A DNA stretch of 64,000 nucleotides, from contig CM091797.1 of NCBI GenBank assembly GCA_043290085.1, positions 22,174,880 through 22,238,879 on the forward strand, given 5' to 3'. Below are positions 56,101 through 62,100 of this stretch, in pieces. Position numbers: made by a program. The first letter of the stretch is position 1, and each line of letters starts with the position of its first letter. This DNA is from Rhynchocyon petersi. Its lineage: Eukaryota.

Positions 56101-59100
56101 GAATTGTGGGACCTAATGGCTGTTGGATCACCTGTTCGTATGAACCAGTTCTGGAGGACGGAAAATATAGACTGCAAGAAGAAATGTGGGTCAATGACCT
56201 GTGACACTTGCGAACTGTAAATGCCAATGAAGATCTGATCAAGTACTAATAGGATACTACTACCAGGTACTGAAGATATATAGCATAGAAAGACTACTCT
56301 GATATGTATACATACTCTCTCAAAACCTGGGTCTTTACAAATCGGCAAACTTAGAAAAATTCACATAGGGAAATATAAAATTTTAAAAATATGAAAGAAT
56401 TATCTTGTATATTCTCTTGAAAAGAAATAATGGACAGTTAAATATGAATAACATTTCCTTTGAATTTTATTGGGAAAGGGGGCATATGTAGTAGTTGAGA
56501 AATATTGAGGATTCCTGGTATAAGGTTTAATGACGCTGTTTGTAATACCAGCCTGTAAAGAGTTAATGAGTTGGCGGACTATGTCTTACCACAGAGTTTT
56601 TCCGGTGTGTAGAGCAGACTCTGGAGAGAGTCTCAGGAAGTAGTCACTCTTGTTTATGATTAAAAGACGTCACTAAACCACTCCCCCCCAAAACGAATAA
56701 AAACGGCAGGGCCGGAAATTCCTTCCCTTTTCGCCTACACCTTTCTGGAGGTCGGTGTGCTGATTTTGTCCGCGGAAAAACCTCGTGGTCGCGACACCAT
56801 AGCACTTGGGAACATAGCACCAAGCATGTATGTAAAAGTTGAGTAATGAATGAGGGAGACCAAAGAATTGGTCGCTTTGAATTGTCATGTTGGAGAAAAC
56901 TATGACTAGACCATGATCTGCCAAAAAGGACAAATAAATCTGTCTTGGAAGAAATGCAGCTAAAGGTCCTTAGAAATAAGTATTGTAAATAAGACAGTCT
57001 CAGACACTATAGGCATGTTATTGTTGTTGTTGTTGTTATATGCTACCGAGTTGAGGATGACTCATAGTGACCCCTATGAGCAGCAGATCTGAAACTGGAC
57101 CTGCACCAGCCTCACCATTCCTGACACACTCGAGCCCATCACTGCAGTCACTGTTTCTATCCATCTAGTCGAGGGTCTGCCCCTCTTTCTCTGACCCTCC
57201 ACCTTCCCAAGCATAATGTCCCTCTCCAGGGACTGGCCTTTCCTAACAACATGACGAAAATATGTGAGATGAAGCGTCACCATCCTTGCTTCCAAAGAAC
57301 ACTCTGGTTGAACTCTTTCCAGGATGTATTTGTTTGTTCTTTTGGCCACCCATGGGATATTGAGCAATTTTCTCCAACACCACAGCTCGAAGGCATCAAT
57401 TCTTCTTCTGTCATCCCTAGTCACCATTCAACTTTCAGATGCATAGCTAATAACTGAGAAGACCATGGTTTGTATCAGGTGCACCTTTGTCTTCAAACTG
57501 ACATCATTACTTCTCAGAACCTTAGAGAGGTCTCTAAAAGCAGCCTTTCCCAATGTGATGCGTCTTCTGATTTCTTGACTTTTGGTGCCAGAGGTGTTGA
57601 CTGTGGAGCCAAGTAAAAAGAAATCGTTGACAGTTTCAATCCTCTCTCCATCAATTATGATGTTCCCTATTGGCCCAGTAGTGAAGATCTTAGTTTCCTT
57701 GAAGTTTAGCCACAGTCCATATTGAAGACTGCAGTCCCTAAGCCTCTGCAGCAAAACTTTCAGGTCCTCCTAACTTTCAGCAAGCAGGTTTGTGTCATCT
57801 GCATATCGCAGGTTGTTGATGCACCTTCGTCCAATCCTGATACCACGCTCTTCTTCATAGAGCCCTGCTTCCCGAATAATTTGCTCTGCATACAGATTGA
57901 ATAGGCATGTTATTGTTGTTGTTGTTATGTGCCATCGAGTCGAAGACGACTCATAGCGACCCTATGAACCACAGACCTGAAATGCCCCCTATCCTGTGCC
58001 ATCCTCACCAACCCCGACACACTGGCACCCATCGCTGCCGTAACTGCGTCCAACCATCTTGTCGGGGGTCTGCCCCTCCTTCTCTTACCCTCCACCTTCC
58101 CAAACATAATGTCCTTCTCCAGGGACCTGTCCCTCCTAGCAACATGTCCGAAATATGTGAGGCGGAGCTTTGTCACCCTTGCCTCCAAGGAGAACTCTGG
58201 CTGGACCTTCTCCAGAACATATCTGTTTGTCTTCCTGGCCATCCATGGAATATTGAGCACTCTTCTCCAACACCACAGCTCAAAGGCATCAAGTCTTCTT
58301 CTATCTTCCCTAGTCATTGTCCAACTTTCAGATGCATGTGTAGTGATCGAGAAGACCATTGTTTGAATCAGATGCACCTTTGTCCTTAGACTTACATCAT
58401 TATTCTTCAGAACCTTGGCAAGGTCTCTAACCGCGGCCTTCCCCAATGTGATACGTCTTTTGATCTCCTGGCTACTGGTGCCAAGGGTATTGACTGTGGA
58501 TCCAAGCAGTATAAAATCACTGACAGTTTCGATTTTCTCTCCATCAACCATGATATCCCCTATTGGCCCTGTGGTAAGGATCTTGGTCTTTTTGAGGTTC
58601 AGTTGCAATCCGTATTTCAGACTGCATTCCTTGAGTTTCTGCAGCAGAGCCTTCAAGTCCTCCTCACTTTCAGCAAGCAATGTTGTATCATCTGCATATC
58701 GCAAGTTATTGATGCACCTTCCTCCAATCCTGATGCCACGTTCTTCCTCATAAAGTCCTGCCTCCCGAATAATCTGCTCTGCATAAAGATTGAATAGGTA
58801 TGGGGACAGGACGCAGCCCTGACGCACACCTTTTCTGACCTTGAACCATGCTGTGTTCCCATGCTCTGTTCTTACCACAGCTTCTTGGTCTAGGTATAAA
58901 TTTCGCATAAGCACGATCAAGTGTTCTGGGATTCCCATCCTTCTCAAGGTTAGCCACAGCTTGTTGTGATCCACACAGTCAAACGCCTTTGCATAATCAA
59001 TGAAGCACAGATATACATTCTTCTGGTACTCTTTGCTTTGAGCCAGTATCCATCTGACATCTGCAATGATGTCTCTAGTGCCCCGGCCTCTTCTGAACCC

Positions 59101-62100
59101 AGCCTGGCTTTCTGGAAGTTCTCTTTCAATGTACTGCTCCAGTCGTTTTTGGATAACCCTCAAAAGAACCTTGCTTGCATGTGATATTAGTGATATAGTT
59201 CGGTAATTTCCACATTCTTTGGGATCGCCTCTTTTCAGGATTGGGACAAACACGGATCTTTTCCAGTCAGTTGGCCAGGTGGTTGTCCTCCAAATTTCTT
59301 GGCACAGCGTGGTAAGCACATTTAGGGCTACATCCGTCTGTTGAAACAGATCTATAGGTATGCCATCAATGCCAGGGGCCTTGTTTTTAGCCAATGTCCT
59401 CAGCGCTGCTTCCACTTCCTCCCTCGTTACTGTTGGTTCCTGCTCATAGTCTACTTCCTGAAATACTTCCATGTCATTCAGATCCTTTTGGTATAGTGAC
59501 TCTGTGTATTCTTTCCATCTTCTTTTGATGCTCCTTGGGTCATTCAGTATCTTGCCAGAAATGTCTTTCAATAGTGCTACTCGAGGCTTGAACTTGTTCT
59601 TCAGCTCCTTCAACTTGAGAAATACTGAACGGGTTCTTCCCTTTTTATTTTCCAGCTCCATTTCTTTGCACATTTCATTGTAGTACCTTGCCTTGTCTTC
59701 ACGAGCGGCCCTTTGAAACCTTCCATTCAGAGCTCTTACATCCTCTTGTCTTCCCCTTGCTTTGGCTTCTCGTCGCTCGATTGCAATCTTCAGAGTTTGT
59801 TCTGACATCCACTTAGGTCTCCTTTTCCGTCGTTGTCTTTGTAAAGATCTTTTGCTTTCTTCATGGATGATATTCTTTATATCTTCCCACAGCTCCTCTG
59901 GTCTTCGTTCCGTAGTGTTCAGTGCCTCAAACCTATTTCTGAGGTGGTCTTTGAATTCTGGTGGGATAGCCTGAAGGTCATATTTTGGCTGTTGTGGAAC
60001 AATTTTGGTTTTCTTTGGCTTTAGCCTGAATTTGCACAGGAGAAGTTGATGATCTGTTCCACAGTCAGCTCCTGGCCTCGTCTTGACTGCTGCTACTGAG
60101 CTTCTCCACCTGTGTCTTCCACATATATAGTCAATCTGGTTCCTGTGCAGCCCATCAGGTGCTTTCCAAGTGTATAATCTACGTTTGTGCCTTTTGAAGA
60201 AGGTGTTTGCAATGAATAAATCATTTATTGTGCAGAATTCAACCATTCTATCTCCAGCTTCATTTCTATCACCAAGCCCATACTTTCCAACTACCATTCC
60301 TTCCTCTTTATTTCCAACTTTTGCATTCCAGTCGCCAATTATGAGTAGTGCATCTTGATTGCAGGTTTGGTCGACTTCAGCCTGCAGGAGTTGGTAGAAT
60401 TCCTCAATTTCTTCATTTCTGGCCTTAGTTGTGGGTGCATACACTTGGATTATGGTTGTATTGACAGGTTTTCCTTGTATGCGTATGCTTAATATTCTAT
60501 CATTCACAGCGCTGTACTTCAAGATTGACTTTGAAATTGGTTTTTTGACAATAAATGCAACCCCATTTTGTCTTGACTCTTCATTCCCAGAATAATAGAT
60601 CATGTGATTGTCTGAATCAAAGTGGCCAGTGCCAGTCCATCTCAGTTCACTGATTCCTAGAATGTCAATCCCTATCCGCTCCATTTCATTTTTTACAACC
60701 TCCAGCTTTCCTGTATTCATGCTTCGTACATTCCAGGTTCCAATCTTTATTGGGTGCTTGTTGTACTTCCCCATATTCTTTCCCCTCTGTTACACCTAGA
60801 AGAGTTCTACTCTAGTTCATAGGGTTTCCAAAGGCCTCTTATTTTGGAAGTGGATGGCCGATCCTTCTTCCTGATTTGTCATACAACCTACTAAAGACTA
60901 ACATACACTGCTGCACTCCCCTAGCAAATCCTCAATAATTCTCAATTATGTCTTAATAATGGCGCTCTGCATATGCCCCATTTCCCAATAAAATTCAAAC
61001 GAAATATTATTCATATATAACTGTCCATTATTTCTTTTCAAGGGAATATACAAGATAATTCTTTCATATTTTTAAAATTTTATATTTCCCTATGTGAATT
61101 TTTCTAAGTTTGCCGATTTGTAAAGACCCAGGTTTTGAGAGAGTATGTATACATATCAGAGTAGTCTTCTATGCTATATATCTTCAGTACCTGGTAGTAG
61201 TATCCTATTAGTAGTTGATCAGATCTTCATTGGCATTTACAGTTCGCAAGTGTCACAGGTCATTGACCCACAATTCTTCTTGCAGTCTATATTTTCCGTC
61301 CTCCAGAACAGGTTCATACGAACAGGTGATCGAACAGCCATTATTAAGACATAATTGAGAATTATTGAGGATTTGCTAGGGGAGTGCAGCAGTGTATGTT
61401 AGTCTTTAGTAGGTTGTATGACAAATCAGGAAGAAGGATCGGCCATCCACTTCCAAAATAAGAGGCCTTTGGAAACCCTATGAACTAGAGTAGAACTCTT
61501 CTAGGTGTAACAGAGGGGAAAGAATATGGGGAAGTACAACAAGCACCCAATAAAGATTGGAACCTGGAATGTACGAAGCATGAATACAGGAAAGCTGGAG
61601 GTTGTAAAAAATGAAATGGAGCGGATAGGGATTGACATTCTAGGAATCAGTGAACTGAGATGGACTGGCACTGGCCACTTTGATTCAGACAATCACATGA
61701 TCTATTATTCTGGGAATGAAGAGTCAAGACAAAATGGGGTTGCATTTATTGTCAAAAAACCAATTTCAAAGTCAATCTTGAAGTACAGTGCTGTGAATGA
61801 CAGAATATTAAGCATACGCATACAAGGAAAGCCTGTCAATACAACCATAATCCAAGTGTATGCACCCACAACTAAGGCCAGAAATGAAGAAATTGAGGAA
61901 TTCTACCAACTCCTGCAGGCTGAAGTCGACCAAACCTGCAATCAAGATGCACTACTCATAATTGGCGACTGGAATGCAAAAGTTGGAAATAAAGAGGAAG
62001 GAATGGTAGTTGGAAAGTATGGGCTTGGTGATAGAAATGAAGCTGGAGATAGAATGGTTGAATTCTGCACAATAAATGATTTATTCATTGCAAACACCTT

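What the first reader, a model, noticed from the sequence alone, without database searches (positions are those of the whole stretch)
57906..60893. Full-length RTE/BovB element with an uninterrupted 949-aa EN-RT ORF
All other RTE copies in the window (at least 15) are fragments or decayed. This one keeps complete endonuclease and RT domains, its 5'UTR and an (AAC)n tail, so it is a candidate active master copy. It is also the element involved in the inverted repeat.
Basis: seen in the sequence. Interest (0 to 1): 0.6.

Follow-up and report, generated by a model that had tools for sequence, protein, structure and literature searches.

The report
Intact RTE retrotransposon in a fold-back insertion
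This is a real, young, coding-intact copy of a known mammalian jumping gene (RTE/BovB-type LINE), but it arrived as part of a larger 4.3-kb insertion that also carries a piece of a retrovirus and a mirror-image copy of its own front end, so it is a daughter copy and not a proven "master".

Summary
A 949-aa ORF (57925-60774, minus strand) encodes a complete APE-type endonuclease plus reverse transcriptase, with every catalytic residue checked in place and a confident full-length model that matches LINE-1 ORF2p. It has a 112-nt 5'UTR, a 3' hairpin and a (CAA)n tail, as in afrotherian RTE1 families. About 22 other RTE blocks (31% of the window) are truncated and/or carry stops or frameshifts.

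The boundaries and the interpretation need correcting. A perfect 12-bp target-site duplication (AATAACATGCCT) brackets 57915-62210, not the 2,988 bp reported. Joining the outer flanks restores one continuous ancient RTE reading frame. The inserted unit is:
- an inverted copy of RTE positions 1-~800 plus 77 nt of leader;
- a 373-nt loop of ERV-internal sequence;
- the 77-nt leader;
- the full RTE.

The inner junction sits on a 7-nt microhomology. The best reading is one target-primed reverse transcription event on an ERV-to-RTE read-through RNA, ending in cDNA snap-back or twin priming.

The copy is young (arms 99.54% identical; about 0.5-0.8% from the young-subfamily node) and its lineage was under purifying selection (dN/dS 0.19). 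"Master copy" status is untested. This is a known kind of element with a neat but explicable structure.

The parts
57925..60774 (-). RTE ORF, 949 aa, ATG..TAA, endonuclease + reverse transcriptase + C-terminal domain
60040..60753 (-). APE-type endonuclease domain (residues ~8-245). N15, E43, Y112, D148, N150, D215, D241 and H242 are all present.
   Evidence: Pfam full-profile match. These residues are invariant or nearly invariant in 58 sequences. Y112, D148/N150, D215 and D241-H242 align to the L1 ORF2p YAP, GDFN, IDH and SDH motifs. The fold covers the whole L1 EN crystal structure.
58573..59229 (-). Reverse transcriptase core (residues 516-734). Motif A is D593/D599, motif B is Q652-G653, motif C is YADD 693-696, and K729 is present.
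60775..60886 (-). RTE 5'UTR (~112 nt). It carries in-frame stops where relatives encode an N-terminal extension. The start context is AGAATATGG.
   Evidence: Homology to older copy 18120-18560 starts here and shares the TGA and TAG stops. It is homologous to the middle of the window's SINE family.
57937..57952 (-). 3' hairpin GAGTCG-TCTT-CGACTC inside the last codons of the ORF
   Evidence: Conserved in 10 LINE and 4 SINE copies, with 2 pairs showing compensatory changes. Also present in the closest relative, L001.
57915..57924 (-). (CAA)n tail, CAACAACAAC, directly after the stop codon
   Evidence: literature PMC6007223 Table 2
57903..57914 (-). Target-site duplication, 3' copy: AATAACATGCCT
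62211..62222 (-). Target-site duplication, 5' copy: AATAACATGCCT. Position 62210 is one extra base between it and the insert.
60887..60963 (-). Proximal leader (77 nt), non-RTE. It contains the start of a diverged ERV LTR (TGCAG..TTGAGAATTATTGAGGATT) with an 18-nt insertion, then ~45 nt of uncertain origin. It forms the inner end of the left arm.
60964..61336 (-). Loop of the palindrome: ERV-internal 3' end up to the polypurine tract. It is 97% identical to 56114-56491, the last internal segment of the neighbouring provirus.
61337..62209 (+). Right arm: an inverted duplicate of the 77-nt leader, the RTE 5'UTR and the first 228 codons (RTE positions 1 to ~800). It is 99.54% identical to the left arm.
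57023..57902 (-). Older 5'-truncated RTE fragment (RTE pos ~2100-2988, 79.6% identical to the intact copy) that had used the same target earlier. A third copy of the target lies at 57011-57022.
56819..57010 (+). Left half of the ancient plus-strand RTE copy that hosted both insertions. The right half is at 62223-62350.
   Evidence: The reconstructed empty site gives one in-frame HSP to RTE aa 811-894 across the junction.

Best explanation
What it is. The ORF belongs to a young, coding-competent copy of an afrotherian-type RTE1 LINE (RTE/BovB clade). It has one ORF encoding an APE-type endonuclease and a reverse transcriptase. It also has a short 5'UTR, a 3' stem-loop lying inside the last codons, and a (CAA)n tail.

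How such elements move (established for the clade). The endonuclease nicks a T-rich target. The exposed 3' end pairs with the (CAA)n tail. The RT then copies the RNA in place (target-primed reverse transcription, TPRT).

What is shown here. The copy was not inserted alone. One TPRT event at the target AATAACATGCCT delivered a 4,296-bp unit (57915-62210).

What is inferred. The template was a chimeric read-through RNA from a source RTE sitting in sense orientation just inside the 3' LTR of a betaretrovirus-like provirus, so the cDNA ran about 450 nt past the RTE 5' end into ERV sequence. The 3' end of the cDNA (GCCATTA) then either snapped back onto the complementary TAATGGC 373 nt behind it and copied itself back to RTE position ~800, or, equivalently, annealed to a second cDNA primed from the other target strand at position ~800 (twin priming). 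Either route produces the 873-nt inverted arm before the product was sealed to the target.

Consequence. This copy is a daughter. It is intact and recent, so it could be retrotransposition-competent, but its status as a source element is untested.
For: Intact enzyme:
- 949-aa ORF with EN and RT domains.
- All catalytic residues lie in invariant or near-invariant columns of 58 sequences.
- It deviates at only 7 of 186 columns that are >=90% conserved, inside the range of 1-11 seen for relatives. The two non-conservative changes (Y813H, W932F) are also in the consensus of old copies.
- AF2 gives pLDDT 89.4 and pTM 0.80. The best structural matches are full-length L1 ORF2p at E~1e-38, and the L1 EN crystal structure is covered at TM 0.76-0.79.

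Selection and age:
- dN/dS is 0.19 against the old-copy consensus over 216 codons.
- 3 private (+2 ambiguous) changes in 652 nt, against 8 for the other young fragment.
- The arms differ at 4 of 873 nt.

Family:
- TAA followed by (CAA)n, as published for RTE1_LA, RTE1_Pca and RTE-1_EC (PMC6007223).
- A partner SINE built from a tRNA head, the RTE 5'UTR and the RTE 3' end (PMC5786205).

Single insertion:
- AATAACATGCCT occurs 3 times, all on the minus strand, against 0.01 expected. Two copies lie exactly at the outer ends of the unit.
- The reconstructed empty site restores an uninterrupted ancient RTE frame with the TSD counted once.
- The target has TTT at -11..-13, T at -1, A at +1 and a 12-nt TSD. 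This matches the published RTE signature (PMC6007223, PMC13295347).

Leader is ERV:
- The loop is 97% identical to the last internal segment of provirus 48862-56799, ends in a polypurine tract, and continues into an LTR start.

Fold-back junction:
- A 7-nt microhomology, TAATGGC, sits at the inner junction. The twin-priming model for L1 predicts such microhomology (PMC2912911).
Against: - Activity is not shown. No progeny, no transcription data, and no identical protein on record.
- The four arm differences are all synonymous third-position transitions. Three lie within 43 nt and are derived in the intact arm. This is not what arms born identical and then drifting should show.
- The same 12-nt target must have been hit twice, first by the older fragment 57023-57902.
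- Classical twin priming gives non-overlapping segments, whereas here ~870 nt are duplicated.
- The ~45 nt next to the RTE 5' end are only weakly LTR-like, so part of the leader could be a subfamily-specific 5' extension.
- The host lineage (Afrotheria) and the family name rest on literature features and on my memory of AfroSINE sequences, not on a comparison with a consensus sequence.
Confidence: 0.7

Rival explanations
1. The palindrome already existed at the source locus. A long transcript running through it was reverse-transcribed from the (CAA)n tail, and the cDNA was simply 5'-truncated at antisense position ~800. The fold-back therefore happened earlier, elsewhere.
For: It gives the same final structure and the same TSD. 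It would give the arms more time to diverge, which could help explain the non-random arm differences.
Against: It only moves the origin of the fold-back to another locus. It also needs a >4.3-kb hairpin-forming RNA to be copied end to end. Arm divergence is only 0.46%.
Confidence: 0.15
2. An ordinary insertion (ERV leader + full RTE) came first. The inverted 873-nt arm was added later by a DNA-level fold-back or template-switch replication error at the GCCATTA/TAATGGC microhomology.
For: There is a 7-nt inverted microhomology at the inner junction. Inverted duplications with a spacer are a known product of replication template switching (general knowledge).
Against: The outer end of the arm abuts the 5' TSD copy to within one base. 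A later rearrangement would have to break exactly at the original insertion junction.
Confidence: 0.08
3. One reading: a plain 2,988-bp full-length master copy whose neighbour in the inverted repeat is a separate element.
For: The ORF is intact with a 5'UTR and tail. The copy is young.
Against: The TSD and the empty-site test bracket the whole 4.3-kb unit.
Confidence: 0.04
4. The palindrome is an assembly artefact, for example a chimeric fold-back read.
For: Near-perfect inverted repeats are a known long-read artefact (general knowledge).
Against: There is a 373-nt asymmetric loop, and the arms differ at 4 sites. The outer end lands on a genuine TSD whose removal restores an older reading frame.
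Confidence: 0.03

Closest known systems
Afrotherian RTE1 families (RTE1_LA elephant, RTE1_Pca hyrax, RTE1_ET tenrec, RTE-1_OAf aardvark), treated as BovB in Ivancevic et al. 2018
   Same: - A single EN-RT ORF.
- A (CAA)n tail, with the TSD starting with A and a T-stretch ~10 nt upstream (PMC6007223).
- Very high copy number.
- A partner tRNA-headed SINE built from the RTE 5'UTR and 3' end (PMC5786205).
   Different: The window's SINE ends in (CAC)n/(CA)n, a tail not listed for the elephant AfroSINE families in PMC6007223. The host is therefore probably not an elephant.
Ruminant/squamate Bov-B LINE
   Same: RTE clade, with the same domain order, the YADD motif and a 3' stem-loop plus microsatellite tail. 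The closest labelled proteins are squamate BovB-like proteins at 51-56% identity.
   Different: The ruminant ORF is ~1,044 aa (PMC8620236) and the cow tail is (CTGAA)n (PMC6007223). This ORF is 949 aa because the N-terminal extension is deleted. Identity to the nearest database protein is only 65%.
LINE-1 5' inversion by twin priming (Ostertag & Kazazian model; PMC2912911)
   Same: A TSD flanks the whole product, the inverted segment lies at the 5' side, and there is microhomology at the internal junction.
   Different: The sense part here is full-length and the inverted part duplicates ~870 nt of it, instead of being the missing upstream segment. A 373-nt loop of transduced non-element sequence lies between them. 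Single-strand snap-back explains the structure equally well.
LINE-1 5' transduction / upstream transcription initiation
   Same: Non-element sequence lies between the 5' TSD and the element's 5' end, implying a transcript that began upstream of the source element (PMC2912911 notes this for L1).
   Different: The transduced segment here is the 3' end of an ERV plus the start of its LTR, so the driving promoter was probably a provirus. The source locus has not been identified.

Membership tests
RTE clade of non-LTR retrotransposons | Single long ORF with an N-terminal APE-type endonuclease followed by an RT; no RNase H and no separate ORF1 | tested here: met
   Pfam finds only Exo_endo_phos and RVT_1. 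The upstream frames are closed. The fold matches EN+RT of L1 ORF2p.
RTE clade of non-LTR retrotransposons | Very short 3'UTR ending in a short tandem repeat | tested here: met
   TAA is followed directly by CAACAACAAC. The closest relative, L001, has the same design.
RTE clade of non-LTR retrotransposons | RT groups phylogenetically with RTE/BovB elements | tested here: inconclusive
   All 621 hits are EN-RT proteins of ~1,000 aa. The few labelled ones are BovB-like or 'endonuclease-reverse transcriptase'. No tree with labelled clade references was built.
Afrotherian RTE1 (RTE1_LA-like) | (CAA)n tail, TSD beginning with A, T-stretch ~10 nt upstream | tested here: met
   compared with PMC6007223 Table 2 and PMC13295347
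Afrotherian RTE1 (RTE1_LA-like) | Partner SINE sharing the RTE 5'UTR and 3' end (AfroSINE architecture) | tested here: met
   Seven SINE copies align to the RTE 5'UTR and 3' end. The architecture is described in PMC5786205.
Afrotherian RTE1 (RTE1_LA-like) | High nucleotide identity to the Repbase/Dfam family consensus | not testable with these tools
   No consensus library is available, and no mammalian genome collection could be searched.
Bov-B sensu stricto | Close identity to the bovine/squamate Bov-B consensus, ~1,044-aa ORF | tested here: not met
   51-56% aa identity to squamate BovB-like proteins. The ORF is 949 aa and lacks the N-terminal extension. The bovine consensus itself was not available.
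Retrotransposition-competent ('hot'/master) LINE | Intact ORF with all catalytic residues | tested here: met
Retrotransposition-competent ('hot'/master) LINE | Progeny copies carrying its private substitutions; transcription; activity in an assay | not testable with these tools
   No genome, RNA or assay data. The look-up of encoding contigs found no identical protein.
Twin-priming / fold-back TPRT product | One TSD flanking both the inverted and the sense segments | tested here: met
Twin-priming / fold-back TPRT product | Microhomology at the inversion junction | tested here: met
   The 7-nt TAATGGC is shared by the arm end and the natural start of the ERV segment.
Twin-priming / fold-back TPRT product | The inverted segment is the region upstream of the sense segment, with little or no overlap | tested here: not met
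   873 nt are present in both orientations. This is therefore a variant: either snap-back, or twin priming with strand displacement.

The most novel reading that the evidence does not exclude
The ERV-derived leader may not be a one-off passenger. It could be the new 5' region of a currently active RTE subfamily that is expressed from proviral transcripts. In that case this locus would be a natural record of RTE reverse transcriptase snap-back or twin priming. Read-through transcripts of the palindrome could form an ~870-bp hairpin dsRNA that feeds small-RNA silencing of the family.
Probability: 0.1. Interest if true: 0.5.

Novelty: new member of a known kind. Interest (0 to 1): 0.33.

Why it matters
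Coding-intact RTE/BovB copies are scarce where they have been counted. Giraffe genomes hold only 5-9, and cattle only a few (PMC8620236). A young intact copy is therefore a useful candidate for cloning and for testing whether RTE is still mobile in this lineage. The TSD-bracketed composite structure also gives a clean natural example that an RTE-clade RT can copy a chimeric ERV-RTE transcript and finish with a fold-back. These behaviours are documented mainly for L1. None of this changes what is known about how these elements work.

Tried and rejected
- Exact-protein look-up for the 949-aa ORF: nothing on record.
- Protein database search: the best hit is only 65% identical and comes from an unnamed ENA contig where the RTE sits in a gypsy-like element, so it gives no species or family name.
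- EN domain alone against PDB by phmmer: no hit. The family profile still aligned L1 only from residue 50. N15 and E43 therefore rest on the Pfam full-profile match, on invariance in the alignments, and on the fold match.
- Rfam on 55-64 kb: no hits. ARAGORN on the whole window: no hits. The SINE heads are too decayed to be called.
- Literature search for the diagnostic tail sequence: 0 papers.
- Rejected: the missing N-terminal extension is a truncation of this copy. An older copy shares two of the three upstream in-frame stops. The relative L001 starts its ORF in the region homologous to this 5'UTR. The EN fold is complete from residue 8.
- Rejected: the loop was copied from the neighbouring provirus. 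The two are 3% divergent, against 0.46% between the arms, and the LTR start differs by an 18-nt indel.
- Rejected: the older fragment 57023-57902 was co-inserted by 3' transduction. The internal copy of the 12-mer would then have to match the new target by chance.
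Full report

Yes. On the minus strand, 57925..60774 is an uninterrupted ATG-to-TAA ORF of 949 aa. 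Pfam finds a complete Exo_endo_phos domain (residues 12-242, profile 1-225/225) and RVT_1 (516-734).

The window is eukaryotic (41.6% G+C) and saturated with relatives of this element. There are 22 blastn blocks totalling 20,015 bp, or 31% of the window. They are 66-87% identical to the intact copy, with two exceptions: a 674-bp 3' fragment at 35562-36235 (97.6%) and a plus-strand copy of the first ~800 nt at 61407-62209 (99.5%). All the others are 5'-truncated and/or carry stops and frameshifts.

**2. Is the enzyme complete?**

I aligned the ORF with 11 and then 57 full-length relatives (alignments A1 and A4).

- Every endonuclease residue expected of an APE-type LINE nuclease lies in an invariant or near-invariant column: N15, E43, Y112, D148, N150, D215, D241, H242.
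- The same is true of the RT residues: D593/D599 (motif A), Q652-G653 (motif B), Y693-A694-D695-D696 (motif C, which is YADD and not FADD) and K729.
- HMMER aligns Y112, D148/N150, D215 and D241-H242 with the YAP, GDFN, IDH and SDH motifs of human L1 ORF2p.
- The copy deviates from the relatives at only 7 of 186 columns that are >=90% conserved. Relatives tested the same way deviate at 1-11.
- The two non-conservative deviations, Y813H and W932F, are also in the consensus of the window's old copies. They are family traits that were present while the family amplified.
- An AlphaFold2 model is confident over the whole chain (mean pLDDT 89.4, pTM 0.80; only residues 1-5 are disordered).
- The best structural matches are full-length human LINE-1 ORF2p (E~1e-38, ~970-1,020 aligned columns). 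The N-terminal domain covers the L1 endonuclease crystal structures at TM 0.76-0.79 normalised to the target.

One real difference from relatives stands out. All 57 relatives have 40-131 residues (median 66) before the invariant Trp of the first EN strand, and this ORF has 13. This is not a private lesion, for three reasons:
- The in-phase upstream sequence carries three stops, two of which (TGA, TAG) are shared in phase by the ~13%-diverged copy at 18.1-18.5 kb.
- The closest relative (P0001, locus L001) starts its ORF inside the region homologous to this element's 5'UTR. The extension was therefore lost through a deletion of roughly 150 nt in the ancestor of this family.
- The EN fold is complete without it.

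**3. How old is it, and was it under selection?**

I used a consensus of nine older copies as outgroup over 652 aligned nt. The intact copy has 3 private changes (plus 2 ambiguous), against 8 for the 35.5-kb fragment. The two young copies share 68 differences from the old consensus. The intact copy therefore lies about 0.5-0.8% from the node of the two young copies.

Between the intact copy and the old consensus, dN/dS is 0.19 over 216 codons. The lineage leading to this copy was kept functional. The two arms of the inverted repeat differ at 4 of 873 nt. At roughly 1-2.2e-9 substitutions per site per year (general knowledge of mammalian rates), that corresponds to about 1-2 Myr at most.

**4. 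Where are the true boundaries, and what was inserted?**

The arms are 60091-60963 and 61337-62209, with 373 nt between them. Homology to the older 5'-end copy starts only at ~60886-60889 (TGTATGACA...). The inner 77 nt of each arm are therefore not RTE.

*3' termini.* Other copies end in ...GGCACATAA(CAA)n followed by unrelated sequence. The intact copy's tail is followed by AATAACATGCCT. That 12-mer occurs exactly three times in the window, all on the minus strand, against 0.01 expected:
- 62211-22, one base outside the right arm;
- 57903-14, just after the tail of the intact copy;
- 57011-22, just after the tail of the adjacent older fragment 57023-57902.

*Empty-site test.* I joined 56700-57022 to 62223-62360, counting the 12-mer once. 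blastx then gives a single in-frame HSP to RTE residues 811-894 that runs straight across the junction. Everything from 57023 to 62222 is therefore inserted into one ancient plus-strand RTE copy, and the 12-mer is a genuine target-site duplication.

*Order of events.* The older 5'-truncated fragment came first, with a 14-nt TSD AATAACATGCCTAT and a CATGCCTAT/CATACCTAT microhomology at its 5' junction. The 4,296-bp young unit (57915-62210) then hit the regenerated target.

*Target signature.* The target (...CATTTGGTCATTCCT|AATAAC...) has TTT at -11 to -13, T at -1, A at +1 and a 12-nt duplication. This is the insertion signature published for RTE-clade LINEs, including RTE1_LA (PMC6007223; PMC13295347). 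Its 3' end can also pair with a (CAA)n tail. That may be why the site was used twice.

**5. What is in the unit?**

Read on the minus strand, the order is:
- TSD and one extra base;
- antisense RTE from position ~800 back to 1;
- antisense 77-nt leader;
- a 373-nt loop;
- the 77-nt leader;
- the RTE from position 1 to its end;
- the (CAA)n tail and the second TSD.

The loop is 97% identical to 56114-56491. That segment is the last internal stretch of a young betaretrovirus-like provirus at 48862-56799. It ends in a polypurine tract, GGGAAAGGGGG. The provirus has the following features:
- gag p24 with CCHC zinc knuckles;
- dUTPase-protease;
- an open 837-aa RT-RNaseH-integrase ORF;
- 315-bp TG...CA LTRs that are 99.4% identical.

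In the unit, the ERV-internal sequence continues into the first ~25 nt of a diverged LTR with an 18-nt insertion. About 45 nt of weak similarity follow, and then the RTE 5' end.

The simplest source is an RTE sitting in sense orientation just inside the 3' LTR of a sister provirus, transcribed as part of the proviral RNA. This is inference, because the source locus was not found.

**6. How did the fold-back arise?**

The inner junction lies on TAATGGC. The independent provirus copy reads ...CCTAATGGC|TGTTGG... at the start of the loop homology. The leader begins with the complement, GCCATTA. Two mechanisms give exactly the observed product:

- (a) Snap-back. The first-strand cDNA reaches ...GCCATTA-3', folds back onto TAATGGC 373 nt behind it, and copies itself to RTE position ~800.
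- (b) Twin priming. The second target strand primes on the RNA at ~800, and the two cDNAs anneal through the same 7 nt (model for L1 in PMC2912911).

Both place the outer end of the arm at the 5' TSD, as observed. Three rivals remain.

- A later DNA-level fold-back would have to break within one base of the old insertion junction, so I rate it low.
- A transcript from a source locus that was already palindromic cannot be excluded.
- An assembly artefact is unlikely. The loop is asymmetric, the arms differ at 4 sites, and the outer junction is a real TSD.

**7. What does not fit?**

- The four arm differences are all synonymous third-position transitions (P~0.012). Three lie within 43 nt (P~0.025), and these three are derived in the intact arm, one of them creating a CpG. 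Both figures are post-hoc. A short gene-conversion tract from another young copy, or two slightly different template RNAs, could explain this. Neither can be tested here.
- The only other copy of the loop sequence in 64 kb belongs to a provirus whose 3' LTR ends about 210 bp from the insertion site, in the opposite orientation. Given the 3% divergence, I treat this as coincidence.

**8. How does it compare with known elements?**

- The domain order, the TAA(CAA)n end, the 3' hairpin and the partner SINE fit the afrotherian RTE1 families described in the literature (PMC6007223, PMC5786205).
  - The hairpin is conserved in 10 LINE and 4 SINE copies, with two compensatory pairs.
  - The partner SINE has a tRNA-like head, the RTE 5'UTR and the RTE 3' end.
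- Full-length copies number in the thousands in afrotherians (PMC6036668).
- I could not measure identity to any named consensus.
- The SINE's (CAC)n tail is not among the tails listed for the elephant AfroSINE families, so the species is open.
- The element is not Bov-B in the narrow sense. It shows 51-56% aa identity to squamate BovB-like proteins and encodes 949 aa, against the 1,044-aa ruminant protein (PMC8620236).
- Intact RTE ORFs are rare where they have been counted: 5-9 per giraffe genome (PMC8620236).

**9. Verdict.**

The finding is real, and it is the only coding-intact RTE in the window. It belongs to a known kind of element. "Master copy" is unproven, and the structure shows it to be a daughter insertion. 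The added value is the corrected anatomy: one TSD-bracketed 4.3-kb fold-back unit with a 5'-transduced ERV leader. That is a tidy variant of processes known from L1. Interest is modest (0.33).

Noticed in passing
window 48862-56799 (+): A young betaretrovirus-like provirus. It has ~315-bp LTRs that are 99.4% identical (48862-49176 and 56483-56796), gag p24/CCHC (49884-50798), dUTPase-protease (50795-51616) and an open 837-aa RT-RNaseH-integrase ORF (51616-54129). No env-sized ORF is present in 54130-56100. A solo LTR of the same family splits an old RTE at 28980-29294.
   Followed up: partly
window 6424-12725 and 41602-47732 (+): Two ~6.2-kb LINE-1 copies that are 96-97% identical. The second has an intact 353-aa ORF1 (Transposase_22 + dsRBD-like) and an ORF2 broken into 767-aa and 495-aa pieces. 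The first carries a SINE insertion at ~11205-11376.
   Followed up: partly
window 62352-62527, 33802-33975, 31771-31953, 11197-11371, 17757-17924, 35416-35562 (all -), 34172-34341 (+): A SINE family about 92-94% identical between copies. Each copy has a tRNA-like head, a segment homologous to the RTE 5'UTR, and the RTE 3' hairpin region, but ends in (CAC)n/(CA)n and not (CAA)n. ARAGORN and Rfam do not call the heads.
   Followed up: partly
window 57937-57952 (-) and the equivalent positions of other copies; L001 6018-6035: The 3' stem-loop GAGTCG-loop-CGACTC lies inside the last codons of the ORF. It is kept in LINE, SINE and a 65%-identical foreign relative with different loops (TCTT, TTCA, ATACA). 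Two pairs show G-C to A-U compensatory changes. It is probably the RT recognition element.
   Followed up: partly
window 60115/62185, 60469/61831, 60499/61801, 60511/61789: The four differences between the palindrome arms are all synonymous third-position transitions. Three lie within 43 nt and are derived in the intact copy. This suggests a short gene-conversion tract or two template RNAs, not independent neutral mutations.
   Followed up: partly
window 57011-57022, 57903-57914, 62211-62222; also 63926-63990: RTE insertions re-use tail-like targets. The same 12-mer was hit twice. At 63942 an RTE tail is followed immediately by another very short RTE/SINE 3' end (TTCATAGGGTTGCTATGAAG...GGCACCTAACAAGAAC).
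   Followed up: no
window 63036-63942 (+): A 5'-truncated RTE fragment with a 297-aa stretch free of stops (84% aa identity to the intact copy) and an unusually high CpG o/e of 0.53, against 0.2-0.38 for the other copies.
   Followed up: no
L001 (ENA contig ctg846445, locus 3001-6045): The closest protein relative (65% identity, 1,014 aa) sits inside a Ty3/gypsy-like element (capsid, protease, RT, RNase H, integrase genes on both sides). It shares the TAA(CAA)n terminus. The host organism is unknown and probably not a mammal.
   Followed up: partly
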